IMG/VR virus record: IMGVR_UViG_2675903538_000004
Direction: 5' to 3' (one strand)
DNA: 64,000 nucleotides
Origin: a virus
Lineage: Duplodnaviria > Heunggongvirae > Uroviricota > Caudoviricetes
A model generated the notes under the pieces. The model saw nothing but the letters and a program-made list of their open reading frames with translations, was not told the origin of the DNA and searched no databases. A program made the translations under genes and the position numbers. Positions 4,669 through 29,791 of this stretch are shown piece after piece (the first letter of the stretch is position 1; each line of letters begins with the position of its first letter).

Positions 4669-5108
4669 TTGGCTGGGGTGTATGCGTTCTTGCGTTAGCC
4701 TTAGCCGATCGCTATTTGCTAAAACGCAAGGACATCACGCATTTAGAACTTGGTGATGTGGAAATTAAACCGGGTTTCATCCGGGTGCCGTTCAAATACC
4801 GGTCTAAATTCCCGTTTTTGCGCGGCGCAACGGTCAGATATTGGATCCGCGATGTTCAGAAGCCGACGACAGTGATTGAAGGCGAACAACGTTGTTTGAC
4901 GTCGGCTGAACAGGGCGAAAACAGTGAATGGTTGTACATACCCACTGAATATATGGGTAAAGGAGAGCGACTGTGGCATTTCAACGTCATGGTTACGCAT
5001 GGCGACTCGTTCATTAACCCGTTGTATCGGATTTTCCCTGTTACTCAGCAAATCCGCAGAAGTTACGTAATAAATCTCGCACAGGATGTGTCAGATGACG
5101 AAAAATAA
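4665..5108 (+). CDS. lydB: holin antagonist (LydB-like)
   Basis: 147 aa, start overlaps lydA stop; size and position match P1 LydB (from memory). Confidence 0.55.
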   Translation: MIGWGVCVLALALADRYLLKRKDITHLELGDVEIKPGFIRVPFKYRSKFPFLRGATVRYWIRDVQKPTTVIEGEQRCLTSAEQGENSEWLYIPTEYMGKGERLWHFNVMVTHGDSFINPLYRIFPVTQQIRRSYVINLAQDVSDDEK

Positions 5109-5697
5109 GTATGCAACGGTCGATTTTGACCAGGTTAATGAAAAGGGGCTGAAATCCCTTATCGCGGCGATCAATAAAACCGGTGTTACGGTAATTGAGG
5201 TTGACTCCAGCAACCGCGCAACAACGAAAGATGGCGTTAAAGTTAAAACCGCAAAGCTGGTTCTTAACGACGGACAAATTCTTGCCATACAGGTAAACGA
5301 TACTGGCGATATATCGTCTGTGAGGCTGAATGGAAAAGCTATTCCTAACGCTCAGTCGCCGGATATCAAGACGCTTGGTACCGTCATGGGGCAAGCGGCC
5401 CGCAAAAACTCCGCAAAATTCCAGAAATCACTGATCGCCAAAGCGAAACGTGTTGCCAATCCGGTAGACAAGAAACCGGCAGTAAAATCCAACTTTCAGC
5501 GCCTGCAAGAGGCAAAACAGCGGAATGCTCAGGTGGTTGCCGCTTATAAATCAGCGCAGAACTCGGTGTCTTTCAATCAACAGCAGATCACTGATTTGCG
5601 GGCGAAGCTGGATAAGGAGACAGGCCGACTCAATAACGAAAAGGCCCGAAATGGCGAACTCAAACGCCGTCTTAAGCAACTGAAAGCAGGAAATTAA
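5086..5697 (+). CDS. hdf: Hdf-like protein (shares a motif with DarA)
   Basis: 203 aa; shares AxKNSAKFQ motif with the downstream 639-aa protein; basic coiled-coil C terminus. Confidence 0.55.
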   Translation: MCQMTKNKYATVDFDQVNEKGLKSLIAAINKTGVTVIEVDSSNRATTKDGVKVKTAKLVLNDGQILAIQVNDTGDISSVRLNGKAIPNAQSPDIKTLGTVMGQAARKNSAKFQKSLIAKAKRVANPVDKKPAVKSNFQRLQEAKQRNAQVVAAYKSAQNSVSFNQQQITDLRAKLDKETGRLNNEKARNGELKRRLKQLKAGN

Positions 5698-5698
5698 C

Positions 5699-7618
5699 AT
5701 GGAACAGTTCAATATCAATAAAGGGGTGACGATCAAGCCTGGGCTTGACGTGCTTCCCCCGCCAGTGACTGATGATGAATATCGCGCATTAATGGCCGGT
5801 GAGGACCGCTATCTGATGACGGAATCCAACACCCTGGAGGAAATCGAGGCTACGTTCTTCTATGACACGCCGATCCACTGGTGTGCTACGGATTTACTGG
5901 AGGCGATTAGTTCTACTCGTTTGCAGTTACACCGGACCATGCAGGCATTTGTCCGGGCATTGAACCAGAAGCTGAATGGTACCGGAATCTCTGCGGGGAG
6001 TGATAAAACGGGGGATGTGGCCCAGAGCGGCGCGCGCGCGATCGGCGGCGCTGAAATTGGCCGGGCACGTAACGTTAACGGGCTGCCGGTCTTGCCAGCC
6101 ATTATTCCGCTCAGTGATGGTCAGACTATCAGCATTCTGTTTCATAGCCCGACAGCGGAAAACCGGATCACCAATAGCGATACGCTGGTTGCTTTCCAGT
6201 TCTTACTGAATAAAAAAGACGTTACTCACACCGTTGCTCCGATGAGTGGACGTGATATGACGCTGGCGCAGGTCACCATGAAACTTGCCAACCTTGCAGA
6301 GAAAAACTCGGCAAAATTCCAGCGTGCGCAGAAGAAGAAAAAAGCCCTTGTTGATGAAATAACCCAACTACAGGCTGACAGTGACCAGAAAGAGGATGCC
6401 ATGAGCGACCTCGCGGATCAGGTGGCAGCGGTAGAAGGGCAGAAGGCAGATCTGGAGCAGAAAATTAACGCTGTTGCATCGGAAGCGGATTCTCTTTATG
6501 AAGAGAATGAGCGTTTGCAGACGGAGATTGATCAGCTCAATCGCACTGGTGGGCGCGATACCATTGCTCCAGCGGGGATGACTGGTGGGCACTCTCGCGC
6601 GCTGACGGATCGCCTTGCCAGTATCAAAAATCGTATGCATATGGACGGGGAAGTGACGCTCAGTAATGGTGCATCAATGAAGCAATTCATTGGGGGCGGC
6701 GAAGGGTATATCCAGTTAACCGATCCGGATGGCAGCGTATACATGATCAAGGCTAAATCCATACAGGGTGTGGACATGGCAGATGCGATCGGCAAGCTGT
6801 TTAAAGCCTATAAAGCGGGTAATGTATCGGAATACCTGGTCCAACCAGAAGAACATAAACCGGAAAACGTCGAACCTGAACCAGCGGAGGATACCGGTAG
6901 CTCTTCGCCTGAACCAGAAGTCTCTGTAGGTGCATATCGATATGCCCTGCAAATGCGTCCGGCGGCCCCTGGCGCAATACCTGAAGGTAACAAAGCAATT
7001 CTGCCGCGCCCTGATGAAGGTGACCCGTATTATGAATATGCACGCTACGGCATTGCTACTTACGATACCCCGCTTTCTGATCAGCAAATGAGTGAGTACG
7101 ACCTGAAGTTATTGCCTCGCGAGGATTCTTTCGACTTCCTGGCGAAGACACTTACTAATGGTCCGTTTGGCAAATATTCACAAAAAGCTCTGGAGCTGGC
7201 CACCAGCTCACCAGACGAGTTCCGCGTAATGCTGAAAACTCAGTTTCAAAAAACTTTCCCCAATATTGCGTTTCCTGGGGGCGCTGGCACCGAGAAAATG
7301 GTGCAGAGCATGATCAATGCATTGCAGGCCGAAGTCGGTGAGATTCCTCAGCCAGAACCGGCCCCGGCACAGCCTGATGAAACGGTTAGCGAAGCAGATG
7401 CAGAGGCTAATAAAGCCATTGAATATCTCAATAACGTGATGGATATACAAAGCACTGACATGGCGGAGATCCGTAACGCCCGGGGCAATGTCCGGGAAGC
7501 GATTGCAGCCCTTCAGGCTGCCGGACGTTTTGAGGAAAACGAAGAGCTGGTTAACGGCGCAGCTCGCCACCTGGCTGATCTGTTGGTAGCAATCCAGAAA
7601 GCGGGGGTAGCGGCATGA
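5699..7618 (+). CDS. darA: DarA-like antirestriction / head-internal protein
   Basis: 639 aa, same length and operon context as P1 DarA (from memory); start 1 bp after hdf stop. Confidence 0.7.
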   Translation: MEQFNINKGVTIKPGLDVLPPPVTDDEYRALMAGEDRYLMTESNTLEEIEATFFYDTPIHWCATDLLEAISSTRLQLHRTMQAFVRALNQKLNGTGISAGSDKTGDVAQSGARAIGGAEIGRARNVNGLPVLPAIIPLSDGQTISILFHSPTAENRITNSDTLVAFQFLLNKKDVTHTVAPMSGRDMTLAQVTMKLANLAEKNSAKFQRAQKKKKALVDEITQLQADSDQKEDAMSDLADQVAAVEGQKADLEQKINAVASEADSLYEENERLQTEIDQLNRTGGRDTIAPAGMTGGHSRALTDRLASIKNRMHMDGEVTLSNGASMKQFIGGGEGYIQLTDPDGSVYMIKAKSIQGVDMADAIGKLFKAYKAGNVSEYLVQPEEHKPENVEPEPAEDTGSSSPEPEVSVGAYRYALQMRPAAPGAIPEGNKAILPRPDEGDPYYEYARYGIATYDTPLSDQQMSEYDLKLLPREDSFDFLAKTLTNGPFGKYSQKALELATSSPDEFRVMLKTQFQKTFPNIAFPGGAGTEKMVQSMINALQAEVGEIPQPEPAPAQPDETVSEADAEANKAIEYLNNVMDIQSTDMAEIRNARGNVREAIAALQAAGRFEENEELVNGAARHLADLLVAIQKAGVAA

Positions 7619-7992: not shown

Positions 7993-10980
7993 ATGAGCTT
8001 AAGCGATCAGGTGGTAATGGCCACCAGCATAGAAACGCTGATCGAGCTGCTAAAGAACCTGCCCGATTATGGGCGGGTTTCGTATGTGGTGACAGCGAAG
8101 GGAGACGAGGTAAAAACAGCGTTTGATATCGTCGATGCCTCAGCTCTTTTGGTATCCAATACTCTGGATGGGAAAATTAATCCTGACTATCCCCAGGAAC
8201 TTCAGCCGCGCGACCGGACCCGCGCATCCAGCCTTCTTCAGGTTAACCAGATATCCAAAGATTTGCGGCCAGCTCAGCTTACTGATTCCGGTTTATCCAG
8301 CCATGGTGCGCCAATAATTGGTGAGGACAATGCCGTTGAGTCAGGTAATGGGCGGACCATGGGGATCATTAAAGCCTATCAGGACGGTAATGCGGATCGG
8401 TATCGGGAGTACCTGATTGAACATGCGACCGAATTCGGCATACGGCCTGAAAAGGTTGAATCAATGACGGCTCCGGTACTGGTGCGCCGCCGGTTAACGA
8501 AGGTTGACCGTGTTCAGTTTGCCAAGGACTCAAATATTTCTGATCTCCAGGAAATGGCAGCCAGTGAAAAGGCTTTTGTTGATGCCGACAGCATAACACC
8601 GGCGATGATGGCGTTGTTTAACCCGTCAGAAAGTGGAGATCTGCTTAGCCGCAGTAATGACGCGTTTATTCGCGGATTTATGACGCAAGTTGGTGCCACA
8701 CAGGCGGCTGGCCTTGTAACTGAAGATGGGCGACCAACACGGCAACTTGTAGACCGTATACAAAACGCGATCTTTGCCAAGGCATATAAGGATGCGCGCC
8801 TGGTAAGGATGGTTGCAGAAGAACCTGATCCGGATATGCGTAATGTTCTGACGGCGCTTAATGCGGCAGCCAATGATTTTGTCCAGATGCAGGCTTTATC
8901 AGGAGAAGCGCACAAGCAGGCTGTGACAACTATTGTTGATGGCATTGAGACAGCGGATAGCCTCGATAAAAAGGCGCTGGCGGCATTGAAAGATGCGGTA
9001 GACCTGGTAAGGCAATCGAAGGAGTCAGGCCAGCATATTACCGATGTTATTGCTCAGGGGGATATGTTCAGCGAAACGGCCCCGGAAGTGAAAGCACTCG
9101 CGTTGTTCATCGTCGCGAATAACCGTAGCGCGAAGCGTATGGCCACCGCCTTTAAGTTGATGGCTCAACGTATCAATGATGAGTTACAGCACCAGGGCCA
9201 GGCGCTGGGGGATATGTTTGGCGGCGGCGATGTGTCGTTACAGGATATCCTTCGCCAGGTGTCTCAGGAACTGGAAAACGAAGGCATGCAAGGGATATCC
9301 GGCGGTCTTTTCGAGTCCGTTTCCGGCGGTAGTTACAACGGTGTTGCTCCGTATACCAGTTTGCTATTACATCGGGCATCCGGCATCAAAGACATTATTC
9401 ATCTGATCAGGCTGCTTTCCCGCACAGATCCCCAGGATGAACAGCTTGTACAAGTGCTTGCGCATTTTGTTCGAATGCCTGTTGCCGACGTGAAAAAATG
9501 GTGCCGATTATTCGGTATCAGCAATTCGTTACTTCGCGGCTTGTTAAATCACGCATCCTCCCTTGGGCGCGATGGCTTTGACGAGATAGCGCAGGCGATA
9601 AAAAACGGAGATATGCCACCAGCTATTGACTGGTTTTCCATTCGCCCAACCAGGGTGAAAGCATTCCTTAGCGCGGCGCATTCGGCATCACCATTGGCAG
9701 AAATGGTTCAGAGGTTGTCGCTCATATTCACAGACCATACCGCGTTGGTTGATCTGACTCTGGACGAGATGAAAGAAGCCTCCATTCAGTGGGCCGATCG
9801 ACAAAATGAGGTTAACTCAGACTTCTTGCCAGCATTCAGGAAGGCCGTTAGTAAAGCGGATGATGCCCGTGGAATTCTGAAGGCATTTAAGGCATTGCAA
9901 AGTCGTGTTAATAAACATGTCGGTGATATCGATGGGGTAACGGCGGAAGGCCGGGATATTCTTAAAGAGCACGGCATAACGCCAGAGTTTATTGATGAGA
10001 TCAGGACTGATATGCAGCGTGAGGTCGTATCGTCCCTGCAAATCGTAGCCAGAGCGTTGGCGGATGCTAATCCGAAGAGTGCGGCCATTGTTAACCGGGT
10101 TATTGGTGATATTGAAGCATCGGAGGGCATGGGGGCGCTGAAACTCTTCCTTTCGCGAGCGTTTAATCCTAACGGCAATATTCTCCCTGGCATTATTGGT
10201 GAGGCTAAAAAGTATGTCAGTGAAGAAGAACTTGAGCAGCTTGACCAACTACTTAAGCGATTCTCATATAACCCGCAGATACGCTGGCAAATGAATCAGC
10301 GAAGTATGGGTTCGGTCCACGAGAAAGTGTTATCTGCCATGAACAGTGCGATCGCAAACTCATCCGTATCTGAAGAAAAAGCTCTTGAGTGGGCCGACTC
10401 TTTTATCACAGAAGAAGTGGAAGAAGTCCGCGCTGGACAGAATGGTGGGATAGACCTGCGCAAGGAACTTGCTGATATTTATCGCCTGACCGGCGGGAAA
10501 ATATCGACCTTATCAAAGGTAGTTCACCACCAGGGAAGGGCATATGCAAATCTTAATGGTGTTGTTGCTGTCAATTTGAACGATGAAAATGCAAGTGCAC
10601 TGTGGCACGAGCTGGGTCATCATCTTGAGTACAGTAACCCTGGTTTGTTAGAGAAAGCCCGGTCATTCCTGAAGTCCAATGTTGAAGGGGATAAGCCATC
10701 TTTCGTCAATATCGGTGGGCGTGGCAAGCCTGAATGGTGCTTCAGATCTCGATTGAGTAATATTTATATGGCGAAGGTATACCCGCCAGCCTCAGTAAGT
10801 AACACCGGGAAAATTCGGCAGAAATCACCGACTATTTCCAAAACGTCAGCAACGGAAGTATTCTCTATGGCTCTTCAGTTGTATCATGACAAAGAGGCCG
10901 CTGCCGCATCACTGATGAATGGTGACGGATTGCTGGAACTGTTATTAGGTGTGGCAAAGGAGCTAAATAATGCAGATTAA
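7993..10980 (+). CDS. ddrB: DdrB-like large Dar-operon protein
   Basis: 995 aa downstream of darA/ddrA; size matches P1 DdrB (from memory). Confidence 0.6.
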   Translation: MSLSDQVVMATSIETLIELLKNLPDYGRVSYVVTAKGDEVKTAFDIVDASALLVSNTLDGKINPDYPQELQPRDRTRASSLLQVNQISKDLRPAQLTDSGLSSHGAPIIGEDNAVESGNGRTMGIIKAYQDGNADRYREYLIEHATEFGIRPEKVESMTAPVLVRRRLTKVDRVQFAKDSNISDLQEMAASEKAFVDADSITPAMMALFNPSESGDLLSRSNDAFIRGFMTQVGATQAAGLVTEDGRPTRQLVDRIQNAIFAKAYKDARLVRMVAEEPDPDMRNVLTALNAAANDFVQMQALSGEAHKQAVTTIVDGIETADSLDKKALAALKDAVDLVRQSKESGQHITDVIAQGDMFSETAPEVKALALFIVANNRSAKRMATAFKLMAQRINDELQHQGQALGDMFGGGDVSLQDILRQVSQELENEGMQGISGGLFESVSGGSYNGVAPYTSLLLHRASGIKDIIHLIRLLSRTDPQDEQLVQVLAHFVRMPVADVKKWCRLFGISNSLLRGLLNHASSLGRDGFDEIAQAIKNGDMPPAIDWFSIRPTRVKAFLSAAHSASPLAEMVQRLSLIFTDHTALVDLTLDEMKEASIQWADRQNEVNSDFLPAFRKAVSKADDARGILKAFKALQSRVNKHVGDIDGVTAEGRDILKEHGITPEFIDEIRTDMQREVVSSLQIVARALADANPKSAAIVNRVIGDIEASEGMGALKLFLSRAFNPNGNILPGIIGEAKKYVSEEELEQLDQLLKRFSYNPQIRWQMNQRSMGSVHEKVLSAMNSAIANSSVSEEKALEWADSFITEEVEEVRAGQNGGIDLRKELADIYRLTGGKISTLSKVVHHQGRAYANLNGVVAVNLNDENASALWHELGHHLEYSNPGLLEKARSFLKSNVEGDKPSFVNIGGRGKPEWCFRSRLSNIYMAKVYPPASVSNTGKIRQKSPTISKTSATEVFSMALQLYHDKEAAAASLMNGDGLLELLLGVAKELNNAD

Positions 10981-11278
10981 AATCGCAGCGCCATTAGGTG
11001 GAGATGCCATTATCGAATTTGATGATAATGAAGAAGTTTCCGGGCGTTTAAGCATTATCTCCGGTGACATTACCGAGGACATGATCGCTGAAGCCATAGC
11101 TGGGGCAAATCCCAATAGCTATATGGGATTCGTTAACACCCTTGATGCTCCCGCAAGTGATGTTCTCCGAACGCTGCATCTTTACGCTGGCTGGTTTGTT
11201 GATTGGCCAGCAGTAGATGGTGGCGATGAGGACGACGACGATGATTTTGGTGATCATGTAGACCAGATCGTATATTGA
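10970..11278 (+). CDS. small acidic protein, last gene of dar operon
   Basis: 102 aa, overlaps ddrB stop, followed by terminator. Confidence 0.5.
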   Translation: MQIKIAAPLGGDAIIEFDDNEEVSGRLSIISGDITEDMIAEAIAGANPNSYMGFVNTLDAPASDVLRTLHLYAGWFVDWPAVDGGDEDDDDDFGDHVDQIVY

Positions 11279-11283
11279 AGAAA

Positions 11284-11309
11284 TCCCGCCACTCGGCGGG
11301 ATTTTTTTT
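11284..11309. terminator. bidirectional rho-independent terminator
   Basis: TCCCGCC-ACTC-GGCGGGA hairpin followed by T8; sits between convergent genes. Confidence 0.65.
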
Positions 11310-12090
11310 AATCGCTTTCCACTTCTTCCGTGGTGTTTTCTTGCAGTTCTGTTAATGCAGCACGACATAGGTTCCGGGCATTGGCTATAGCCACACTTTT
11401 GACTTCATCCGTCATCGTGCAGGTAATGTACTGATCGAGTTCTTCAGCGCGGATGATGCTTTTGCCAATCAGAAACTGTATTTGCCAGAGCAGATCGGCA
11501 TCCATAATCAGAATTTCTGCCGGGCCTTCAGGGCCAGCCGGGAAGGAAACATAAGACTGTTTGCCCAGGCCGACAACTCGACAACTTGCTTCAAGAATTG
11601 CGCGCTTGAGGTCTGACTTTATAACGGAAACAGGTTGATTTTCACCAGTGATTACGCCGTTGACATGGAAAGGCATGTAGCTTGAAATACGCTCCACTTT
11701 CCACACGCCAGCAAGCGATCCTTCATGCAGCACAATGGGGGTAACCGCGAGTTTCATCTCACCATATAGCTGCTGGCAGATAGCTGGATTGCTGAATACA
11801 TCTAAAGGCTCACATTCAAACAGCGGCGCAATCTGCATGAGGTCCATCATGGTCATCCCTGGGGTACGAGCAGTAATGAATCTGCGCATACCAGTATCCA
11901 TTGCGCTCCAGATTGCTACACCATGCTTTTTGCTCACTTCTTCAGTAAAGCCAAGGTGGCACATGATGGTTTTTTCGATAGCCAGATCAGAGATCGAAAC
12001 CTTTTCGCCAGGCACACCATCATTATTGATGGTCACTTCGACACTCTGACCATTACGCAGGCGGTATTGAATTGCTTTAGTATTTTCCAC
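11308..12090 (-). CDS. hypothetical protein
   Basis: 260-aa ORF, no recognised domain. Confidence 0.55.
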   Translation of the reverse strand: MENTKAIQYRLRNGQSVEVTINNDGVPGEKVSISDLAIEKTIMCHLGFTEEVSKKHGVAIWSAMDTGMRRFITARTPGMTMMDLMQIAPLFECEPLDVFSNPAICQQLYGEMKLAVTPIVLHEGSLAGVWKVERISSYMPFHVNGVITGENQPVSVIKSDLKRAILEASCRVVGLGKQSYVSFPAGPEGPAEILIMDADLLWQIQFLIGKSIIRAEELDQYITCTMTDEVKSVAIANARNLCRAALTELQENTTEEVESD

Positions 12091-12096
12091 GTTAAA

Positions 12097-12774
12097 TCAC
12101 TCCACTACAAACCAGTCACATGCCAGTAAGTCGCCTACAGAAGGAACCCACGGAACAACTACACCTTGTGCATTTTTTAAGGCGAAATAAGCACCATACG
12201 GAACGAGGTCGCCGGGGAAATATCCCTTAATGGCTTCCATTCGTGCCGGGTACTGTCCTTCAGGAACCAGCCAGCAGAATTGGTTTTCGCCGTTCCACCC
12301 GCGTCGAGCAACTTTCTTGCCATCCTTCAGCCACATCAGCGCGTCAGAAAAGTCGGCTGCTTCAAGGTCGATTTCTTCTTGTGTGGTAATGATGCCACTG
12401 GCAGCAATAGTTACGTCCCTGGCTGTAATGAATGTCACCCCATTGTGACCTTCAATACTGAGCGATACCCCATTTTCGAAGAAGTCGTTAGTCCGACTAA
12501 AGCCTTCTTCAAATGTTTTTTCTGGTGAATAGGACAGAGATCCGTCCTCATAAGCGACCAGATATCCGCCAATTTCTGGTCGGTGTTTTTGCAAAAACAT
12601 TTTATCAACATGGACTTTTACCCCTTCTGGCTCAACGACTTCGATGTTGCAAAAAAGGACCACATCCATTAGGGCGATAATTTCGATATCTTTGATTTTT
12701 GAGGCGCGAACTGTTTTATGGCTTTTGTATTTTGGAAGTGCCGTCAAAAGCTCTTTCGTTGTCATGTTATTCAT
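12097..12774 (-). CDS. DUF2829 (Tad2-like) C-terminal domain fused to an unknown N-terminal domain
   Basis: C terminus ALMWLKDGKKVARRGWNGENQFCWLVPEG..YFALKNAQGVVVPWVPSVGDLLACDWFVVE fits the DUF2829 pattern; ATG at 12774 (MNNMTTKELL) preceded by GAGGAAAG; track start 12942 probably too long. Confidence 0.6.
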   Translation of the reverse strand: MNNMTTKELLTALPKYKSHKTVRASKIKDIEIIALMDVVLFCNIEVVEPEGVKVHVDKMFLQKHRPEIGGYLVAYEDGSLSYSPEKTFEEGFSRTNDFFENGVSLSIEGHNGVTFITARDVTIAASGIITTQEEIDLEAADFSDALMWLKDGKKVARRGWNGENQFCWLVPEGQYPARMEAIKGYFPGDLVPYGAYFALKNAQGVVVPWVPSVGDLLACDWFVVE

Positions 12775-12971
12775 AGTCTTTCCTCTGCTTAAAACCTGAT
12801 GTATTGCGCCTTCAGGTGGGGCAGGAATGTTTTCCCACCAGCGAAAGCAATATCTCGGGGTGTTCTTTTCGTGAAAAGCGCGTGCCATTGCCAACTTTGG
12901 CGTTTGTTTGCGAGTTCGTGCTTTTGTCGGCGTCTGGACCACCGCTTTTCTTTCAGTCGTTTTTTACACAT

Positions 12972-13460
12972 TCAAAACGGAATATCGTCGTCAAAGTCCA
13001 TTGGAGGTTCGTTATTGGCGTTGCTCTGAGGTTTACCGCCACCACTGTATTGCTGGTGGTTTTGAGGTTGGTTTGATTGCCCCCAGCCATTTGAGGACTG
13101 TGAATCGTCACGGCGAGCGCCGATCATTTGCATGGTGCCGCCCTGGCTGACGATAATTTCCGTCGTGTAACGTTCTACACCGGCGTCATCTGTCCACTTA
13201 CGGGTTTTAAGTTTCCCTTCGATGTAGACCTGAGAACCTTTTCGTAAATACTCACTCGCAATTTCAGCAAGTTTTCCGAACAAAACGACTTTATGCCATT
13301 CTGTTTGCTCTTTCTGTTGGCCCGTTTGCTTGTCCCGCCATGATTCATTCGTTGCGATGCTGAGTCTTCCGACCGCGCCGCCATTTGGTATATACCTGAT
13401 CTCCGGGTCTTGCCCCAGGGTACCAATCAGGATGACTTTGTTTACACCGCGTTGTGCCAC
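12972..13460 (-). CDS. ssb: single-stranded DNA-binding protein
   Basis: [25 protein letters not shown] fold..Gly/Gln-rich tail ending DFDDDIPF. Confidence 0.95.
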
Positions 13461-13479
13461 TTATCTTACCTAATAAAAT

Positions 13480-13496
13480 AAATTAATTAGAGCAAT
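13480..13496. promoter_or_regulatory. C1 operator-like site (reverse orientation)
   Basis: AAATTAATTAGAGCAAT, 1 mismatch to reverse complement of P1 operator consensus ATTGCTCTAATAAATTT (from memory). Confidence 0.5.
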
Positions 13497-13630
13497 AATG
13501 TATATCTTTGAAACGTAGCTAACAAGTGATTTGCATTATCCTGTGCCTTCTAAAGGGATCGAGTCAGTCGGTATTGGCTGTGAATGGGTGTTTGTCCTGG
13601 AGCGTAAAAAATTCGCTTATGAGGTCTTTA

Positions 13631-14187
13631 TGAAGGGAAAAACAGCCGCAGGAGGCGGTGCAATTTGCGCTATCGCGGTGATGATTACCATCGTGATGGG
13701 TAATGGCAATGTGCGAACCAACCAGGCGGGGCTTGAGCTGATTGGTAACGCTGAAGGTTGCCGACGTGATCCATACATGTGCCCGGCAGGGGTATGGACT
13801 GACGGGATCGGTAATACACACGGGGTAACGCCGGGTGTGCGAAAAACAGACCAGCAAATCGCCGCTGATTGGGAAAAGAATATCCTGATCGCTGAACGCT
13901 GTATTAATCAGCACTTCCGGGGCAAAGACATGCCCGATAATGCCTTCAGTGCAATGACAAGCGCGGCATTCAATATGGGATGCAATAGCTTACGGACCTA
14001 CTACAGCAAAGCGCGAGGCATGCGAGTAGAAACGTCCATCCACAAGTGGGCGCAGAAAGGGGAATGGGTGAATATGTGTAACCATCTCCCTGATTTCGTG
14101 AACAGTAACGGCGTGCCCCTGCGAGGTTTAAAGATTCGCCGTGAAAAAGAACGCCAGCTTTGCCTGACGGGACTGGTCAATGAATAA
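13631..14187 (+). CDS. lyz: SAR endolysin (T4-lysozyme fold)
   Basis: MKGKTAAGGGAICAIAVMITIVMG signal-anchor then EGCRRDPYMCPAGVWTDGIGNTHG (Glu..Asp..Thr lysozyme catalytic motif); ATG 13631 after GAGG; 185 aa. Confidence 0.9.
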
Positions 14188-14478: not shown

Positions 14479-17209
<2,731 letters not shown>

Positions 17210-17275: not shown

Positions 17276-20200
17276 ATGAACAAGCTATCTATGGGGGTGT
17301 TTCGCTGTTCAAGTGTCAGCGAAATATTGAAATACATTAGGGCAATAACATCTCACCGAGCGCCGATTAGATACGGCGTGGAAAAGGTGGAAGGCAAAAG
17401 CTATGACCGACTACGCCGGGAGGCGAATCAGAAGGCGATAGATTTGCTTAATTCGCTGGTGGACGGCGCGACACTGACAGATGAACAGCGCCAGATCCTG
17501 GCTGGGTACACCGGTGAAGGCGGCATTGGCGGGTCCGTCTCCGAATATTACACACCAAAGCCGATCGCTGAAGGTGTCTGGGAGATCATGAAGCTCTACG
17601 GCGCGGACGTAGGTAACACTCTGGAACCATCGGCGGGAACCGGCGTTTTTAATGAGACAAAACCGGTTGGTACGGTGATGACCGCGACTGAGATCAGCAG
17701 TGTTTCCGGTCGTATAAACCAGTTGTTACACCCGGAAGACAGCGTACAGATTTCCCCGTTCGAACAGCTGGCTATAAGCACGCCTAACGATTCATTCGAC
17801 CATGTTGTGGGTAACGTTCCGTTCGGCGGTCGTGATAACACACGCAACATCGATAAGCCTTACGCAGAAGAAACGGACATGGGTTCTTACTTCATGCTCC
17901 GCATGCTGGACAAGATAAAGCCAGGCGGATTCATGTGCGTGATTGTGCCGCCGTCCATTGTTTCAGGTTCAAACATGAAGCGGTTACGCCTGCGCCTATC
18001 ACGGAAAGCTGAATTTCTTGGTGCCCACCGCTTGCCTACCGGTACTTTTGACGCAAACGGGACCAGTACAGTCGTTGATGTGGTGCTGATGCGCAAACAT
18101 CCGGCAGAGATGGCTGAGAAAATCCCCCTGGTGGATGAAAGCACTCTTGAATCGGCAAATGTGCTTTGGCCAACGTTTATTTCTGGCAAGTGGTTTGAAA
18201 AGGATGGCCGCCGGTTTGTTCATGGCACCCAGGAAAAGGGCTTCCAGGGGCGTATTGAGGTTCGTGCCGACGGTCAGATTGATAACCAGGCTCTTAAAGC
18301 GAAGCTGATTCATCGTTTCGAAAGCCGTATCGACTGGTCTTTGCTCGATATGGCTGAACCGTCACTGACCGCAGACGTTGTTGGTGAAGGGGAAATGCGC
18401 CTGATTAATGGCGTATGGCAAAAATATGCTGGTGGTCGCTGGATTGAAGCTGATGCCGGGAAGGAACTTAAAATTGATGCTGCCAGTTATGGCGCGGATA
18501 GCTGGGAGGCTCTTCAGCGTAACCTGACTACAACAGAAGGCCGTCTCGGTATGACATTTACCCAGATGGCAAATGTCCGCGATAAGTACACCACATCAAT
18601 CAGCGACGATATGGTGCAGCTGGTGGACTGGATTAACAGCCAGCCTGAAAAATACCGTGAACGCTTGTATCGTGGGGCGATGATTGGCCGGATGTTAATT
18701 GAATATCAGGATATGAAGGCCGCCGGGCATAGTGCTGAACAAATCGAACAGCAGCGCCTTTCTCTGGTATCCCGTTTGCAGGCAGAGATTGACCGTTTTG
18801 GTAACCCTGGTCGCGGTCCGATAGCTAAATTATCGGGAAGCGGTGCGCGCGCCTGGTTTGCTTTCCGTGGTGCAATTAAGCTGGATGGCACTATTTCTGA
18901 CGAGCTGACAGGAAAGCTGGTTACGCATGATTCCAGCGCCAGTTATGACTCCACCAGCTATCAGGACACCCTGCGTTATCTCTATAGCGATCTTACCCGC
19001 GATCCAATCCAGCTCGATGATTTCCGCCTTGCGTTTACCGGCGAATTGCCAGCCAGTGATGAAGAGTTGCTTAATTTATTGGCCAGCACTCCTGGTATTG
19101 CGGTTTCACCGTATGGCGGGATTGTTCCGTTCGCCCGCGCCACCAGCGGCGACATTAACGAGATAGTGGCTCCAAAACAGGAATTCCTCGCCACGCTCCC
19201 CGACGGTCCAGTAAAGAACAACGTCCTTAATCAGCTGGCAGCGATCGAAGAGAAGCGCATCAAGACGCCAGCAGAGAATATCCGGTTTAAGCTCAATAGC
19301 CGTTGGTTCGACCGTTCCGTCATTCTGGAGTTTTTGCAGGAAAACGGCTATCCGGATCTGCGCTATGTGCAGTCAGTGCAGCTGGAAGGCGACGAAATGG
19401 TTTCTGACACCTATCACGGTGGTGATGGCCTGTTCGTCGGGCACCGATACGGTGTCGTCCAGCGCAAGGATAAAGAAACAGGCGAGATCCGCTACGAGTG
19501 GGACCGTAAATCAGGTGAAAACGCGACCGGGTTCCCGGCACAGCTGGAAAAGTATCTCAATGGTGCGCGTATCGGTGGCAAAGATAGCGCGACGGCGAAC
19601 GGCTACCGCGAGCAGATGGCACTGCTTGAGGACCAGTTCAATAAGTGGATCAAGACGCACGATCGCTACGATGAACTGGTTGCCAAATACAACGATGTGT
19701 TCAATAGCAATATCCCGTATGAACACTCTGGCGATCCGCTTGGGTTGAAGGGATTAAGCGGTAAGCGCCAGCCATTTGATTACCAGAATAGCGAAGTGCG
19801 CCGACTGTCCGAAGATGGGCGCGGCATCCTGGGCTTCGGCACCGGGCTGGGTAAAACTACGACCGCGCTGGCGCTTGAGGCGTTCAACTATGAGAACGGT
19901 CGCTCCACCCGTACTGCGTATGTAGTGCCTAAATCAGTGCTGGAAAACTGGTATTACGAAGCAAAAGAATTCCTGAGTGAAGAGGCATTCAGTAACTACC
20001 TGTTCGTCGGTCTTGATGTGCTGATGGATGGCGATCAGATTCGCCAGGTGCCGGTGCTCGATGAGAACGGTAAACCTGTTCTTGGTACTGATGGCACTCC
20101 AGTTATGCGCGATGCCCTAAAACTGGCAGATGAAGCCACTATCACGGCGCGGATGAACGCGATCCCGCACTCAAATTACCGTGCAGTCGTGTTTACCAAA

Positions 20201-23200
20201 GAACAATACGCCCGCATTCCGCTACGTGATGACACCGTAGATGAGCATGCACAGGATATGCTTTATGACTTCGTTGCAGCCGGGCGCGTAGCCAGCGCAA
20301 TGGACTCCGACTCCCACCGCAAAGAGGCCGCGCGTCGCCGGGTATTGTCGGAGTATTCAGATACCGGCACCGAAAAAGCAGAGAAGTATCCGTACTTTGA
20401 GGATATGGGCTTCGATAGTGTGATCGCCGACGAAGGTCACAACTACCGCAATAGCTATAAAAATGGTCGCGAAGCGTCACAACTGGCCTATCTGCCCACC
20501 AGCGCGGTGGCGCAATCGGCGCGAGATATGGCAATTAAAAACGCGTACCTGATGAAAAAGAATGGCGGGCGCGGGCCGGTTCTCCTGACTGCAACGCCAG
20601 TCGTTAACACCCCGATCGATGCATACAACATGCTTTCTCATGTTCTGCCGAAGGAATACTGGCAGAACATGGGGATCTACGGTCCTGATGACTTCGTTAA
20701 ATTCTTCGGCAAGACCAGGCTGGAAACGGTACAGAAAATTAGCGGTGAAGTTGAAGAAAAAATGGCGCTGGTGGGCTTTGAAAACCTTGATGCGCTGCGC
20801 GGTATATTCCATCGCTGGGTAACGCTTAAAACGGCGGAAGACGTTAAGGATACCGTGGAGATCCCGGAGCTGGACGAACACCAGCAGGATGCACCACTTA
20901 CTGAAGAACAACTGGCGGCGTATGAAGAATTGCGTCAGCAGGCGGAAGCGGCGGCCAAAGCCAACAATGGCGTAACGACCTCGGTCAATGAAGACGGCGT
21001 GATTGAGCACGAGAAAGCCCGTCCGATCTTCTCAATAATCAGGGATATGGACCGCGTATGTACTGACATGGACCTGTACTATCGCCGGATCACCTATCGT
21101 TTCCTGCCGGAGTACGCCGATGCGGTGCAGCAGCTGGCGGACAGTTTGCCTAAACAAGCCACCAGCGAAGACGACGACAGTGATGATTCAATCACGCAGC
21201 AATCGCAATACTCCCTGATAGATAAGGGCGAGTTTATTCAGTTGCAGGTTCCGGAAGCGTTCGAGCAGGAAGTGAATAAGCGCCTGGCCAGGTTTGGCAT
21301 TGACGAACAGACCGTAACTCACCCCGTTACGCCGAAATACGCGAAGCTGATCGCCACGCTGAAGGAGTTTTTCCCGGAAGGTAAGCAAATCATCTTCACC
21401 GATGAAAAAACGCAGCACCAGAAGCTCAAGCGCATTATCTGCAATGCTCTAAACCTTGAACCTTCAAAGGTGGGGATCCTGAATGCTCAGACGGTTGCCG
21501 AGGCAGGTAAAACCGGTAAGAAACTGAAAGCGGTTAAACCGCCGAAAGAGCTACCGGATGAACCAACAGATGCACAGATAGCGAAATACAACGAGCAAAT
21601 GGCTCTGTATGACGCCTATATCGCGCAGCAAAATGAAATGTCGTTGGGCGGTCTGGAAAAGATTGCAGCCGACTTCCAGGAGGGCCGGACTCCGATCATC
21701 ATCTGCAACAAAAAGGCAGAGGTGGGTATCAACCTGCATCGAGGAACGACTGACATCCATCATCTGACGTTGCCATGGACACCAGCCAGCATCGCACAAC
21801 GTAACGGTCGCGGTGCACGAGTTGGCTCCAACCGTGCAAGCGTTCGCGTTCACTACTACTGCGGCAAGGGGTCTTTCGATGAATACCGACTGAAGACGCT
21901 GAAGCGTAAAGCAGGCTGGATCTCCGATATCCTCCGTTCAGATAAGTCAGAAATGGAGAACGCCGACGCCAATGACATGATCGAAATGCAGATGTATACC
22001 GCGAAGGATGACGGCGAACGTCTGGCAATGATGCAGGTTCAAATGGATAAGGCGAAAGCTGCGAAACGCGCTCGCCAGAAAGAACAGGCTACTATCGACC
22101 TTCAGAACTACATCAAGGCGCAGCACGCAGCTGGTGAGGATGTGGAGGTACTTACCGCTGAATTGGAGCGAAGCAAAGCGGAACTTGAAAAGACCACCGC
22201 CGAGGTAGCTAAATTCAAACAGGCGGTAATGGCCAAAGCAGCTGATAACGCAGACTGGAAAGCCCGCTGGGGTAGCGTCCATCACACAGACCGTATGTTG
22301 TTAGCACAGTATCGCGCGTCGTTGAAAAGCGCCATTCAGCGCAAGGCTAATATCTCTCAGGCCATCTCCCGCTATGAGAAATTATTGAACCGTACTCAGA
22401 AGGCCGCGACGGATATCAAACGCCTGCGCCCGCTGGTGGAGGATGCAATAAATAAAGGCATTCTGGATGTTGATCCTGATCTGGTTAACCATGCGAATGA
22501 GTTCCTTGTTATCGGCGATCGCTCATGGCGTGTAGGCCAATACTATGATTGTGCCGGTGATATCGTTCGCATTAAGTCGCTGGACTTCGACAGCCAGCGC
22601 GCAGACGTGGAGATCATCTTTACCTTCAAAGGCACCAAATCGGGTAACTGGGATGTGAAGACGCTGGATAAACAGGTTGATGTAACTCCCGATGAAGATG
22701 CTGTTATGCAGAAAATCAGTGGTGGCGTCTCCATCGCCGGGATTAACGACATCATTTCCTGTGACGATTTCTACCGTTTCCAGCAGCGCGGCATGATCAA
22801 AATCACTGACTCATACGGCGTTCAGACTACAGAGTCAGGCTATAGCATCGATTTTGTTGGTACCTATACGGACCCACTGAAGCATGCGGTTTACCCGGAT
22901 CGCCGTGACGGCGCGCTGAAGTCGTCAATTGCAAAATGGGTGCTTGGTATGATGTCGGAAGGGAATAACCGCCAGATCCGTTCGGCAGAAACATTCCTGG
23001 TTGAACTGTTTGGCTCCAATTATGGCGATGTAATCGCGTCATACGGAGATACGCTATCCCCTGAAGCAATTCAGGAGAAAATAGCGGATGCGATCGCCAG
23101 AATGCCGGAAAAAACAAGCCAGGGGGCTACTCGTAACGGGGATTCTGAACTTGAAGTCACCAATGCCATTTTCGGTACCAATGAGTTCCGGGCGTCAGAT

Positions 23201-24803: not shown

Positions 24804-26108
24804 CTATATAAACTTAGATATAATATCGTGAATCTGTTGTAGCGGGATTTCTTCCATCTTACTCTTAATAAGAGAGCGGTTAGATGCTGTCAGTGAAGGC
24901 CATTTTGTTTTCCAGGCTAGATATGCTCGCCATGAGTAGCCTGTTTCGTAAGGTTTATTCATATAAGTCATTGAGTGTTCAACCGCATGTATGTATTTTT
25001 TCTCAAAGTTGGTTCCTTTTACTTCAAATAAACTACCGAAATAAATAAGCCATTTTGCCAGGTGTTCATACTGCTCCCATGCGCCAGACTCTTTAGTAAG
25101 ATCTATTTTTTTATCTATTATATCACAAAAAACATTTAATACCTTTTCATCATTCCAGCTATATCCAGATGATGAAATGGAGGAAATGATATGATAAAAA
25201 GAATCCTCTAACTTCAAGAACTCTATTTTATACTCTCTTCCGTTTTTTATTACCGATTTGATTGAGTGCCTCAATTTGTCTTTTATTTTTTTTGCTTCTG
25301 GAATTTTCTTGTTAAGTTTTCTAAAGAAATCAGACACCTCTGTTTTATCTATAACCCTAATCCCAAAGCAGGAAAAATAGTAATCTTTAATAGGTTGCAA
25401 TAGTTTTCCTCGGGAAATAAGGAAAATATTGGAGGACATTACGTTGTCCCGTGAAAATACCTTATATTCATTTATAATCGCCTTGAGGTTCGCGTCACTT
25501 AGAGAATAGCCAAGAATAACAATAGTGTTTTCATGTAGAACTGTGCTTAGTTTATTTGAAAAGTAAGAATTACCATTTATAAATCTGAAATAATCCTCGC
25601 TAGTAACAACCATATCTGATGGGGAGTCTATAGAGCCGTGAACATGGTAGACTTTAACCTCACAATTATATTTTGGAATTGGCAGGCCGGGGGTGATTGT
25701 ACACGTTCGATTCTCTCCAGCCAGTTTTTCTGCTAACTTGTCATAATTTGTCGTAATTACTTTAAATGTGTTTTCTTTGAAAAAGTCTTGAATATATTCA
25801 ATTGATGGATCAAGTTCGATTGAGGCTATGATTTTCTCAATCTCCTGGTAAATATTTTTCCCCGAAAGTATAAATTTTAGTGCAATAACTTGAGCAGCCT
25901 CTTCAAGGCTAAGGTCTTTTGCTTTTCCATCAGGAAATAATTCCTCTTTGAGTGAGTCACCATCCTTCAATAAACCGCACAGTTGCTCCAATAAAGATTG
26001 CCAACTTGGGGCTTTATCATCAGAAACAGCCTTTGAAAATCCAGTGCCTGTAAGAAAGCACAGCCTATGTGTAGCTGCTGCATAGGCAATTTCTATATAC
26101 TCGCTCAT
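24804..26108 (-). CDS. SIR2-domain protein (ThsA/DSR-type NADase-like N-terminal domain, unassigned C-terminal domain)
   Basis: 434 aa; FLTGTGFSKA, TTNYDKL, YHVHGS, ILGYSLSDANL motifs of defence-type SIR2 domains; gene about 35 percent GC against about 47 percent surroundings. Confidence 0.8.
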   Translation of the reverse strand: MSEYIEIAYAAATHRLCFLTGTGFSKAVSDDKAPSWQSLLEQLCGLLKDGDSLKEELFPDGKAKDLSLEEAAQVIALKFILSGKNIYQEIEKIIASIELDPSIEYIQDFFKENTFKVITTNYDKLAEKLAGENRTCTITPGLPIPKYNCEVKVYHVHGSIDSPSDMVVTSEDYFRFINGNSYFSNKLSTVLHENTIVILGYSLSDANLKAIINEYKVFSRDNVMSSNIFLISRGKLLQPIKDYYFSCFGIRVIDKTEVSDFFRKLNKKIPEAKKIKDKLRHSIKSVIKNGREYKIEFLKLEDSFYHIISSISSSGYSWNDEKVLNVFCDIIDKKIDLTKESGAWEQYEHLAKWLIYFGSLFEVKGTNFEKKYIHAVEHSMTYMNKPYETGYSWRAYLAWKTKWPSLTASNRSLIKSKMEEIPLQQIHDIISKFI

Positions 26109-26803: not shown

Positions 26804-26994
26804 CATAGCGCCCATACAAAAAAGAAAAGCCACCAGCGGCGGCTTAGCAATACAACTGAAGGTAGCGCCCGGTACTCAGACTGTGCCGTCCATGGAATAT
26901 TTGAAAAGGGATCCATCCGTACCGGGCGTGTGATGATTCTGACTCAAGTCACTTGTCAGTTGTCAATCATTTAAGATTAAAAATAATATATTTA

Positions 26995-29774: not shown

Positions 29775-29791
29775 ATTGCTCTAATAAATTA
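29775..29791. promoter_or_regulatory. C1 operator (forward orientation)
   Basis: ATTGCTCTAATAAATTA, 1 mismatch; with 29693-29709 forms an inverted pair upstream of coi-c1. Confidence 0.65.

What the first reader, a model, noticed from the sequence alone, without database searches (positions are those of the whole stretch)
12097..12774. DUF2829 (Tad2-like anti-Thoeris sponge fold) fused to an unknown N-terminal domain
The C-terminal roughly 80 aa (ALMWLKDGKKVARRGWNGE...VPWVPSVGDLLACDWFVVE) fit the DUF2829 pattern. DUF2829 proteins have been reported as Tad2 anti-defence proteins that sequester Thoeris cyclic-ADP-ribose signals. Here the domain is fused to an N-terminal domain of about 140 aa and sits between the dar antirestriction operon and ssb. 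The same element also carries a ThsA-like SIR2 gene, so it may combine an anti-signalling sponge with its own SIR2 effector.
Basis: partly seen in the sequence, partly recalled or inferred. Interest (0 to 1): 0.6.

Follow-up and report, generated by a model that had tools for sequence, protein, structure and literature searches.

The report
Tad2 sponge fused to OB domain
A P1-like phage-plasmid gene encodes a Tad2-type "sponge" domain, which probably soaks up bacterial immune alarm molecules, joined to an unnamed small barrel domain that recurs next to several known sponge domains; the Tad2 part is already catalogued, and the partner domain is the new lead.

Summary
Window 12097-12774 (-) is a real 225-aa gene with a good ribosome-binding site. 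Residues 141-224 match Pfam PF11195 (Tad2-like) at 80 bits against a cut-off of 25. The closest solved relative is ModTad2 (46% identity), and the core pocket residues are kept (W160, N161, W209, S212, D215).

The window is a P1-like phage-plasmid. Reference P1 lacks exactly this 684-bp gene. The gene lies downstream of ssb, behind the C1-controlled operator, so early expression is likely.

The "unknown 140-aa N-terminus" is a 97-aa OB-fold domain (PHROG 11049, no Pfam family) followed by a 40-aa low-confidence linker. The OB domain is homologous to the capsid-binding domain of phage L Dec, but lacks Dec's spike and its capsid-contact residues. It belongs to a very large phage family that is repeatedly fused to Tad2, Sequestin and Acb4 sponge domains.

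The gene is common: 213 of 5,426 complete E. coli genomes carry it, annotated as a DUF2829 protein. A 2025 survey already reported Tad2 in 56% of P1-type plasmids.

The "ThsA-like SIR2" gene exists at 24804-26108, but resembles ThsA only in its SIR2 core.

Verdict: an ordinary Tad2 member in a new fusion architecture. Its ligand is unknown.

The parts
12097..12774 (-). Coding sequence of the 225-aa two-domain protein (stop codon 12097-12099)
   Evidence: ORF list. PHROG 872 matches the full length, E = 4.9e-60. 144 homologs, the nearest 99% identical. PGAP annotates the identical protein WP_001354536.1 as a DUF2829 protein with these limits.
12484..12747 (-). N-terminal OB-fold domain (aa ~10-97), PHROG 11049 type, Dec-like
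12364..12483 (-). Acidic, Thr/Ile/Gly-rich linker or beta segment (aa 98-137), structure not resolved
   Evidence: pLDDT 46-50 in the full-length model, with short predicted strands. At least two sequence variants occur among close homologs. It does not align to the Dec spike. Net charge -5.
12100..12363 (-). C-terminal Tad2 (PF11195) sponge domain (aa 138-225) of the ModTad2-like type
   Evidence: Pfam 80.3 bits. PDB sequence search: ModTad2 E = 1.2e-20. Foldseek: 9eib TM-score 0.74 (normalised by target length), 46% identity; 8v3e TM-score 0.87-0.89. W160, N161, G162, W209, S212 and D215 align with the ligand-contact residues of SPO1 Tad2 and HgmTad2.
12781..12785 (-). Shine-Dalgarno sequence GAGGA, six bases upstream of the ATG at 12774
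   Evidence: Read directly from the sequence. P1 has a close variant of this ribosome-binding site (GAGAA) and the same ATG in front of isaA.
12087..12770 (.). 684-bp stretch absent from reference phage P1: the gene behaves as a discrete cassette behind a shared ribosome-binding site and ATG
   Evidence: blastn of the window against P1: window 12771-13600 matches P1 locus 5783-6612, and window 11308-12086 matches 4992-5776, so only 6 bases in P1 stand in for 684 here. Junction sequences were read.
12972..13460 (-). ssb, the upstream gene on the same strand (probable operon partner)
   Evidence: ORF list and the SJ46 and P1 annotations. No terminator-like site was found on the minus strand between ssb and the target.
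13480..13496 (-). C1 repressor operator (P1 Ossb/Op21) upstream of ssb
   Evidence: Exact match ATTGCTCTAATTAATTT; 0 matches expected by chance. Identical to the operator annotated in NC_005856.
11308..12090 (-). isaA-like gene (260 aa, PHROG 2326, function unknown) starting 6 bases after the target's stop codon
   Evidence: ORF list. PHROG 2326, E = 1.5e-149. Window 11308-12086 is 93.8% identical at the DNA level to the body of P1 isaA. No Pfam, NCBIfam or PDB match.

Best explanation
The gene encodes an accessory counter-defence protein of a P1-like phage-plasmid.

C-terminal domain. The 88-aa C-terminal domain is a Tad2-family sponge. By analogy with solved Tad2 proteins it should assemble into a homotetramer. 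Pockets at the subunit interfaces, lined here by W160/N161 and W209/S212/D215, would trap a nucleotide-derived alarm molecule made by host TIR-type (Thoeris-like) immune systems, and possibly also cyclic nucleotides. The immune effector would then never be switched on. The exact ligand is open. Candidates, from its closest relative ModTad2, are His-ADPR and 2'cADPR.

Expression. The gene is a 684-bp cassette placed directly behind ssb, in a unit controlled by the C1 repressor. It is probably silent in the plasmid prophage state and switched on immediately after infection or induction, which is when a sponge is needed.

N-terminal domain. The 97-aa N-terminal domain is a Dec-like OB fold from a very large phage family that is repeatedly fused to the Tad2, Sequestin and Acb4 sponge domains. 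Most likely it is a second counter-defence module, either a ligand-binding domain or a helper domain, rather than a capsid-binding domain.

What is shown and what is inferred. Shown: domain identities, residue conservation, cassette structure, operator, prevalence and the fusion network. Inferred: tetramer formation, ligand, timing of expression and the role of the OB domain.
For: - Tad2 identity: Pfam 80 bits against a cut-off of 25; PDB sequence matches to five solved Tad2 proteins; Foldseek top 24 hits are all Tad2, TM-score normalised by target length 0.61-0.89.
- Pocket: SPO1 Tad2 W25/N26/W73/S76/D79 and HgmTad2 W21/N22/G23/W87/S90/D93 are the ligand contacts. W21A/N22A and S90A/T92A/D93A mutations abolish binding in HgmTad2. 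They align with W160/N161/G162/W209/S212/D215, which are invariant in 39 homologs.
- Fusions are compatible with function: an Acb4-Tad2 fusion protein blocks both Thoeris and CBASS (a cyclic-oligonucleotide immune system).
- Early unit: the C1 operator is conserved, the gene is on the same strand as ssb, and no minus-strand terminator lies between them.
- Cassette: P1 lacks exactly this gene.
- OB domain linked to sponges: of 134 non-giant family representatives, 26 carry Tad2, Sequestin and/or Acb4.
- Related phages SopranoGao and LASTA carry OB-Tad2 and OB-Sequestin at a comparable position in their early regions.
- A standalone OB gene sits two genes from a Lockin sponge gene.
- Strongly conserved polar residues in the OB family (H19, K20, K26, K63, H64, D77, Y79, S81, S83, E89, Y92) suggest a functional site.
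- An independent survey found DefenseFinder 'Tad2' in 56% of P1-type and 93% of D6-type phage-plasmids.
Against: - No experiment exists for this protein or any close homolog.
- Second-shell pocket positions differ from both SPO1 Tad2 and ModTad2: SPO1 T65/D67/H71/T78 correspond to N201/Q203/V207/G214 here. Tad2 specificity varies widely, and about a quarter of all sponge homologs tested (across the Acb2, Tad1 and Tad2 families) inhibited none of seven systems.
- Tetramer formation could not be modelled. The full-length model has pTM of only 0.44, with a disordered middle.
- Co-transcription with ssb is inferred. A 197-nt spacer precedes the gene, and the promoter scan is too insensitive to exclude an internal promoter: it found none in the region, not even the ssb promoters annotated in P1.
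- In the window's OB domain two of the family's near-invariant residues are changed (Y79S, Y92F), so this copy may be degenerate.
- Some standalone OB genes lie in head-gene modules.
Confidence: 0.65

Rival explanations
1. Virion-association reading. The N-terminal Dec-like OB domain binds the capsid or procapsid, so the protein either decorates the head or is carried in the virion, possibly delivering a ready-made sponge together with the DNA, in the manner of the neighbouring Dar proteins.
For: The OB domain is homologous to the capsid-binding domain of phage L Dec. Standalone family members lie between the portal and major-capsid genes in Ralstonia phage GP4, and upstream of a P22-type coat gene in metagenome contig L016. 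Some records annotate relatives as 'capsid decoration protein'. The gene is adjacent to the dar/ddr genes, whose products are packaged in the P1 head (this last point is from my own knowledge of P1 biology).
Against: The alignment with Dec stops at residue 96, so Dec's trimeric spike is not matched. Dec's capsid-contact residues K30, Y31, Y71 and E73 align to E31, I32, D77 and S79 here. The main family conserves a different set of polar residues, which Dec lacks. The gene sits in the C1-controlled ssb unit, not behind a late promoter. The OB-sponge fusions in the Lastavirus phages lie in early regulatory regions. The GP4 capsid structure contains only gp2 and gp1. A trimeric decoration protein is geometrically awkward for a tetrameric Tad2.
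Confidence: 0.1
2. Same sponge mechanism, but the target is not Thoeris. The Tad2 domain mainly sequesters cyclic mono- or dinucleotides (Pycsar cUMP/cCMP, CBASS cGAMP/cGG) through the second pocket formed by the insertion between strands beta-2 and beta-3.
For: ModTad2, the closest solved relative, blocks Pycsar through a separate pocket, and HgmTad2 and SptTad2 bind cGG and cGAMP through the insertion. The window's insertion has the same length and pattern as that of ModTad2. Close homologs carry at least three different insertion variants, 40 of type A, 10 of type B and 22 of type C among 120 hits, as expected for a specificity-determining element.
Against: The ADPR-type pocket core is fully conserved and invariant in the family, which argues that it is in use. 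The residues of the second pocket are not given in the texts available, so they could not be checked.
Confidence: 0.15
3. Not a counter-defence protein. It is instead a nucleotide-binding accessory of phage DNA metabolism, consistent with its position next to ssb and with relatives fused to dUTPase and MazG-like enzymes.
For: A dUTPase-Tad2 fusion (P0056) exists in other P1-like elements. The OB domain occurs in a MazG-annotated phage protein. Standalone OB genes lie next to dCTP deaminase, thymidylate synthase and thymidylate kinase genes.
Against: All Tad2 homologs characterised so far act as immune-signal sponges. The gene is dispensable, since reference P1 lacks it. Early nucleotide-metabolism regions are also where anti-defence genes commonly sit.
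Confidence: 0.07
4. An AcrIIA7-type anti-CRISPR protein that acts on type II-A Cas9.
For: HgmTad2 was first named AcrIIA7, and DefenseFinder labels the family 'Tad2 AcrIIA7'.
Against: The original authors of Tad2 note that Cas9 binding was never shown for the DUF2829 protein, and they argue that the family is anti-Thoeris. From my own knowledge, E. coli and Salmonella hosts of P1-like elements do not carry type II CRISPR-Cas. Identity to HgmTad2 is only about 33%.
Confidence: 0.02

Closest known systems
ModTad2 / MoTad2 (Myroides odoratus prophage Tad2; PDB 9EIB, 8V3E)
   Same: Closest solved relative of the C-terminal domain: 46% identity over 87 residues, TM-score (normalised by target length) 0.74-0.89. 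The insertion after beta-2 has the same length and pattern, and the W-N ... W-x-P-S-x-x-D pocket core is the same.
   Different: ModTad2 is a standalone 88-aa protein. The window protein carries 137 extra N-terminal residues. Second-shell pocket positions differ: ModTad2 T/D/A/S correspond to N201/Q203/V207/G214. ModTad2's ligands (His-ADPR, 2'cADPR, cUMP/cCMP; not 3'cADPR) are measured. None is measured here.
SPO1 Tad2 (gp34.65; PDB 8SME/8SMF/8SMG), founding member of the family
   Same: Same Pfam family and fold. W25/N26/W73/S76/D79 are conserved as W160/N161/W209/S212/D215.
   Different: 34-36% identity. The SPO1 protein has a shorter insertion whose stacked F44 residues occlude the second pocket. 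T65, D67, H71 and T78 are not conserved. It is a standalone protein of a virulent Bacillus phage.
Multi-sponge fusion proteins (Acb4-Tad2 of Pasteurella phage Pm86; Tad2-Sequestin; Tal et al., bioRxiv 2025)
   Same: A Tad2 domain joined to a second small phage domain in one polypeptide. The published logic is that domains fused to sponges are themselves sponges. The OB domain found here also occurs as OB-Sequestin, OB-Acb4, OB-Tad2-Sequestin and OB-Sequestin-Acb4.
   Different: The partner here is neither Acb4 (PF13876) nor Sequestin (PF21825): no Pfam hit at E up to 10. It has no Pfam family, so a Pfam-based fusion screen would have missed it. Its function has not been tested.
Phage L decoration protein Dec (PDB 6E3C)
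   Different: No trimeric beta-helix spike is matched. Dec's capsid-contact residues are not conserved. Dec lacks the polar residues conserved in the main family. The genomic setting is early rather than late.
Klebsiella phage SopranoGao gp55 (198 aa) and other OB-Tad2 proteins
   Same: Same OB-linker-Tad2 architecture, 46% identity over 94% of the query (P0098).
   Different: It belongs to a virulent or unrelated 62-kb phage, has a shorter linker and a different Tad2 insertion. Its relative LASTA replaces the Tad2 domain with Sequestin.

Membership tests
Tad2 sponge family (Pfam PF11195 / DUF2829) | Significant full-length match to the PF11195 profile | tested here: met
   80.3 bits against a gathering score of 25, profile positions 2-73 of 73, E = 1.6e-22.
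Tad2 sponge family (Pfam PF11195 / DUF2829) | Tad2 fold (helix alpha-1 plus anti-parallel sheet with an insertion after beta-2) | tested here: met
   In the AlphaFold2 model the C-terminal domain has pLDDT 80-89 outside the insertion. The top 24 Foldseek hits are all Tad2 structures, TM-score normalised by target length 0.61-0.89.
Tad2 sponge family (Pfam PF11195 / DUF2829) | Ligand-pocket core residues (SPO1 W25, N26, W73, S76, D79; HgmTad2 W21, N22, G23, W87, S90, D93) | tested here: met
   They align with W160, N161, G162, W209, S212 and D215. W160, W209, S212 and D215 are invariant in 39 homologs.
Tad2 sponge family (Pfam PF11195 / DUF2829) | Second-shell, adenine and water-coordinating residues that tune specificity (SPO1 I63, T65, D67, H71, T78) | tested here: inconclusive
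   Here they are L199, N201, Q203, V207 and G214, which differ from both SPO1 Tad2 and ModTad2. These positions vary among functional Tad2 proteins, so the ligand cannot be assigned.
Tad2 sponge family (Pfam PF11195 / DUF2829) | Homotetramer with pockets at protomer interfaces | not testable with these tools
   Only monomer prediction is available. The full-length model has pTM 0.44.
Tad2 sponge family (Pfam PF11195 / DUF2829) | Sequesters an immune signalling molecule and relieves defence | not testable with these tools
   Requires binding and plaque assays. No experimental data on this protein were found in the library.
Dec-type capsid decoration protein (phage L) | N-terminal Dec-like OB fold | tested here: met
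Dec-type capsid decoration protein (phage L) | C-terminal three-stranded beta-helix spike that trimerises the protein | tested here: not met
   The hhalign alignment ends at query residue 96 and Dec residue 90, and residues 98-137 do not align to the Dec spike. The only tail-fibre-repeat hit among homologs (P0023) lies in an extra N-terminal extension, not in the linker.
Dec-type capsid decoration protein (phage L) | Capsid-contact residues K30, Y31, Y49, Y71, E73 | tested here: not met
   In the profile alignment they correspond to E31, I32, a variable region, D77 and S79.
Dec-type capsid decoration protein (phage L) | Presence on virions; late expression | not testable with these tools
   The position behind the C1-controlled ssb promoter argues for early expression, but this is an inference.
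Acb4 sponge (Pfam PF13876), considered for the N-terminal domain | PF13876 profile match; three-strand core flanked by helices | tested here: not met
   No PF13876 hit for the protein or for 21 N-domain homologs at E up to 10. The predicted fold is a five- to six-strand barrel, unlike the Acb4 architecture described. A profile of the N-domain searched against all PDB chain sequences returned only Dec and chance-level hits.
   The SIR2_2 domain is present. The PADLOC ThsA profiles and the PDB ThsA chains match only the SIR2 core: profile positions 107-215 of 478, and chain residues about 109-220. The best PADLOC family is candidate PDC-S25. The adjacent 222-aa ORF has no Pfam or PDB match.

The most novel reading that the evidence does not exclude
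The N-terminal Dec-like OB domain (PHROG 11049) has no Pfam or NCBIfam model and about 4,860 representative clusters. It may be a previously unrecognised family of phage counter-defence modules that bind or destroy an immune signalling molecule. It would have been missed by the Pfam-based 'fused-to-a-sponge' screen that discovered Sequestin. On this reading the window protein is a two-specificity inhibitor, and phage L Dec is a derived member re-used for capsid binding.
Probability: 0.3. Interest if true: 0.8.

Novelty: new variant of a known kind. Interest (0 to 1): 0.45.

Why it matters
The Tad2 part adds little. RefSeq already annotates the protein as a DUF2829 protein, and a 2025 survey already counted Tad2 in most P1/D6 phage-plasmids.

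Two things are useful.

1. Reference phage P1 lacks exactly this 684-bp gene, while about 40% of P1-like elements in complete E. coli genomes carry it. This gives a clean natural pair for testing what a sponge contributes to the host range of a transducing phage-plasmid.

2. The partner domain is an unnamed and very abundant OB-fold family that is fused, in different phages, to three of the seven known sponge families. It has a strongly conserved polar site. It is a concrete, cheap-to-test candidate for a new counter-defence family, and it would also give an evolutionary origin for the phage L decoration protein.

Tried and rejected
1. N-domain as Acb4 (PF13876). I recalled a motif resemblance, and Acb4-Tad2 fusions are known. 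No Pfam hit was found at E up to 10 for 21 homologs, and the fold is different. Rejected.

2. Linker (aa 98-137) as a Dec-like trimeric spike or tail-fibre repeat. hhalign does not extend past residue 96. The PF03406 hit in homolog P0023 lies at its extra N-terminus. Rejected, although the structure of this segment remains unresolved.

3. The ssb-isaA junction as a hot spot where different sponge fusions are swapped. The Tad2-Sequestin protein P0061 is on a different type of 90-kb element. The dUTPase-Tad2 protein P0056 lies next to cre, not next to ssb. Not supported.

4. The 281-aa reading from the GTG at 12942, used in the SJ46 and P1 annotations. It has no good ribosome-binding site. Homologs from unrelated phages start at the OB domain. 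The leader DNA is simply shared with P1. The 225-aa start is preferred.

5. SIR2 gene as ThsA. Not met (see the membership test).

6. Consensus promoter scan of 10900-13700. It found nothing, not even the ssb promoters annotated in P1, so it is uninformative.

7. Ligand assignment from residues. The His-ADPR and cUMP contact residues of ModTad2 are only shown in figures and not in the texts held, so they could not be compared.

8. Mapping conserved OB residues onto the 3D model. Model coordinates are not exposed to scripts.

9. Nine giant proteins hit the OB profile through short repeats. They were treated as artefacts.
Full report
**What the window is.** The region around the finding is 99% identical to Salmonella phage-plasmid SJ46 and collinear with phage P1. 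The gene order is:

| Feature | Coordinates |
|---|---|
| DarA-domain genes | 5086-7618 (+) |
| ddrB | 7993-10980 (+) |
| hxr | 10970-11278 (+) |
| isaA-like ORF | 11308-12090 (-) |
| target gene | 12097-12774 (-) |
| ssb | 12972-13460 (-) |
| lyz | 13531-14187 (+) |
| pro | 14479-15528 (-) |
| prt | 15491-17200 (-) |
| darB | 17276-24043 (+) |

Identical copies of the target lie on 91-kb E. coli plasmids CP088789.1 and pMTY13773_p0111. On the latter, NCBI's PGAP annotation pipeline calls it WP_001354536.1, 'DUF2829 domain-containing protein', 225 aa.

**Checking the observation.** The ORF is real. The ATG at 12774 follows a GAGGA Shine-Dalgarno sequence by six bases. Pfam PF11195 (Tad2-like) covers residues 141-224 at 80.3 bits, against a gathering score of 25. 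PHROG 872 matches the full length. A sequence search of all PDB chains finds ModTad2 (E = 6e-20), HgmTad2/AcrIIA7, SPO1 Tad2 and SptTad2.

**The gene is a cassette that P1 lacks.**
- P1 'IsaA' (320 aa) shares only its first 56 residues with the extended window ORF.
- blastn shows that P1 matches window 12771-13600 and 11308-12086, with 6 bases in place of 684.
- Reading both junctions shows what happened. P1 has a close variant of the ribosome-binding site and the same ATG, followed directly by isaA codon 2. The window has that ATG, then the target gene, then TGA-tttaac-GTG, then isaA.
- The IS1 element and isaB of P1 are absent here.
- Upstream of ssb, the C1 operator Op21/Ossb is conserved exactly at 13480-13496.
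- No terminator-like site lies on the minus strand between ssb and the target.

I therefore infer, but have not shown, early C1-repressed co-transcription with ssb.

**C-terminal domain.** The full-length AlphaFold2 model has pLDDT 74.8. The C-terminal domain is confident except for residues 180-190. The first 24 Foldseek hits are all Tad2 structures, led by ModTad2 with His-ADPR (9eib, 46% identity).

Published contacts are W25, N26, W73, S76, T78 and D79 in SPO1 Tad2, and W21, N22, G23, W87, S90, T92 and D93 in HgmTad2. The mutations W21A/N22A and S90A/T92A/D93A abolish binding in HgmTad2. In the alignments these correspond to W160, N161, G162, W209, S212, G214 and D215. All are kept except the Thr-to-Gly change, and W160/W209/S212/D215 are invariant across 39 homologs. 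The SPO1 second-shell residues T65, D67 and H71 become N201, Q203 and V207.

Tad2 specificity is known to vary:
- SPO1 Tad2 binds 3'cADPR and 2'cADPR.
- ModTad2 binds His-ADPR, 2'cADPR and cUMP/cCMP, but not 3'cADPR.
- Tad2_71 binds N7-cADPR and 3'cADPR.
- HgmTad2 also binds cGG and cGAMP.

The mechanism (a sponge) is therefore well supported by homology, but the ligand is not assignable. Close homologs carry at least three different versions of the insertion that forms the second pocket in HgmTad2 and ModTad2.

**N-terminal domain.** Residues 10-97 fold confidently on their own (pLDDT 89, pTM 0.79) as a small barrel with two helices.
- A profile of this domain hits only one informative PDB sequence, the phage L decoration protein Dec (E = 2.3e-5).
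- hhalign gives 94.7% probability over query 5-96 against Dec 2-90, and stops there. Dec's trimeric spike is not matched.
- Dec's capsid-contact residues are not conserved.
- The domain has no Pfam or NCBIfam model and belongs to PHROG 11049, 'unknown function'.
- An exhaustive HMMER search found 4,860 representative clusters at E up to 1e-3, and 2,269 at E up to 1e-10.

**The fusion network.** Among the best 134 non-giant representatives:

| Architecture | Count |
|---|---|
| OB alone (130 aa or fewer) | 54 |
| OB plus other extensions | 54 |
| OB-Sequestin | 11 |
| OB-Tad2 | 9 |
| OB-Tad2-Sequestin | 3 |
| OB-Acb4 | 2 |
| OB-Sequestin-Acb4 | 1 |

Two related Lastavirus phages carry OB fusions at a comparable position in their early regions: SopranoGao has OB-Tad2 and LASTA has OB-Sequestin. 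One standalone OB gene lies two genes from a Lockin gene. Others lie among nin-region or nucleotide-metabolism genes, and two lie in head-gene modules.

The main family conserves many polar residues: H19 95%, K20 98%, K26 83%, K63 72%, H64 89%, D77 95%, Y79 98%, S81 99%, S83 97%, E89 97% and Y92 99%. Dec lacks most of these. The window copy keeps all but Y79 (Ser here) and Y92 (Phe here).

The sponge families recognised in the literature up to April 2026 are Tad1, Tad2, Acb2, Acb4, Sequestin, Lockin and TadIV-1. None is an OB fold. Sequestin itself was found because it is fused to Tad2 and Acb4 in Pfam. A domain without a Pfam model would have escaped that screen.

**How it most likely works.**
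- Shown: a two-domain protein with a bona fide Tad2 domain, an intact pocket core, and a position behind a C1-controlled promoter.
- Inferred: after infection or induction the protein is made early. Its Tad2 domains tetramerise and trap a TIR-derived ADPR-type signal, and perhaps a cyclic nucleotide in the second pocket. This keeps host effectors silent.
- Role of the OB domain: most likely a second counter-defence module. A role as a capsid anchor is the main rival, and is disfavoured by the missing spike, the missing contact residues and the early-gene setting.

**Comparison with what is known, and novelty.** The gene matches 229 PLSDB plasmids, of which 225 are non-mobilizable (those listed are about 75-103 kb), and 213 of 5,426 complete E. 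coli genomes. By comparison, 491 of those genomes carry the P1 pro gene. A 2025 preprint already reports DefenseFinder 'Tad2 AcrIIA7' in 56% of P1-type and 93% of D6-type phage-plasmids. The Tad2 assignment is therefore not new. The OB-Tad2 architecture, the identity of the N-domain and its recurrent association with three sponge families were not found in the library searched.

**The SIR2 claim.** A 434-aa SIR2_2 protein is encoded at 24804-26108 (-), in the island downstream of cre and ref where P1 carries res/mod.
- It matches ThsA, Dsr1/2 and KomC only over the SIR2 core.
- Its best PADLOC (defence-system profile library) family is candidate PDC-S25.
- No match covers the part of ThsA that carries its signal-sensing domain, and no TIR partner was found.

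Nothing links it functionally to the Tad2 gene.

**Verdict.** This is a correct and well-placed observation of a catalogued anti-defence domain in a new fusion context. Interest is moderate, mainly for the testable hypothesis about the OB partner domain and for the P1-versus-P1-like natural experiment.

Noticed in passing
window 12775-12942 and L002 (P1 NC_005856) 4992-5954: The reference annotation of P1 IsaA (320 aa, GTG start) includes a 56-aa leader that in the window lies upstream of a different gene. A near-identical ribosome-binding site and the same ATG suggest that P1 isaA really starts 56 codons later, giving 264 aa.
   Followed up: partly
window 24804-26108 (-) and 26165-26833 (-): A 434-aa SIR2_2 protein (best PADLOC hit: candidate system PDC-S25) and an unannotated 222-aa ORF sit downstream of cre and ref, where P1 carries its type III restriction-modification genes. 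This is probably a defence cargo of the element, and it is not a Thoeris system.
   Followed up: partly
L011 3001-3726 (Logan contig SRR27033075_31): Other P1/P7-like elements encode a dUTPase-Tad2 fusion (P0056, 241 aa) three genes downstream of cre. That is the variable island which holds the SIR2 gene in this window.
   Followed up: partly
L014 5001-5297 and 5603-6145: A standalone OB-domain gene (98 aa) lies two genes upstream of a Lockin (PF26760) sponge gene on a 19-kb phage-like metagenome contig.
   Followed up: no
L004 3986-4261 (Ralstonia phage GP4 gp05) and L016 784-1053: Standalone OB-family genes also occur inside head-morphogenesis modules, between the portal/scaffold genes and the major capsid gene. 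The published GP4 capsid structure shows only gp2 and gp1.
   Followed up: partly
P0121-P0124, P0133, P0143, P0144, P0150, P0184: Nine giant proteins (1,781-4,931 aa) score highly against the OB profile through 8-28 short stretches at profile positions 59-87 (a GGYLV.Y.DGY-like motif). This is probably a repeat artefact. It remains unexplained.
   Followed up: no
window 13480-13496, 29775-29791, 44672-44688, 60871-60887: Four C1-repressor operator sites (ATTGCTCTAATWAATTT, at most 1 mismatch; none expected by chance) mark the immunity-controlled units of the element.
   Followed up: no
window 11308-12090 (-): The isaA-like gene immediately downstream (260 aa, PHROG 2326) has no Pfam, NCBIfam, PADLOC or PDB match. 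Being co-oriented with a sponge gene in an early unit, it is itself a candidate accessory or anti-defence gene.
   Followed up: partly
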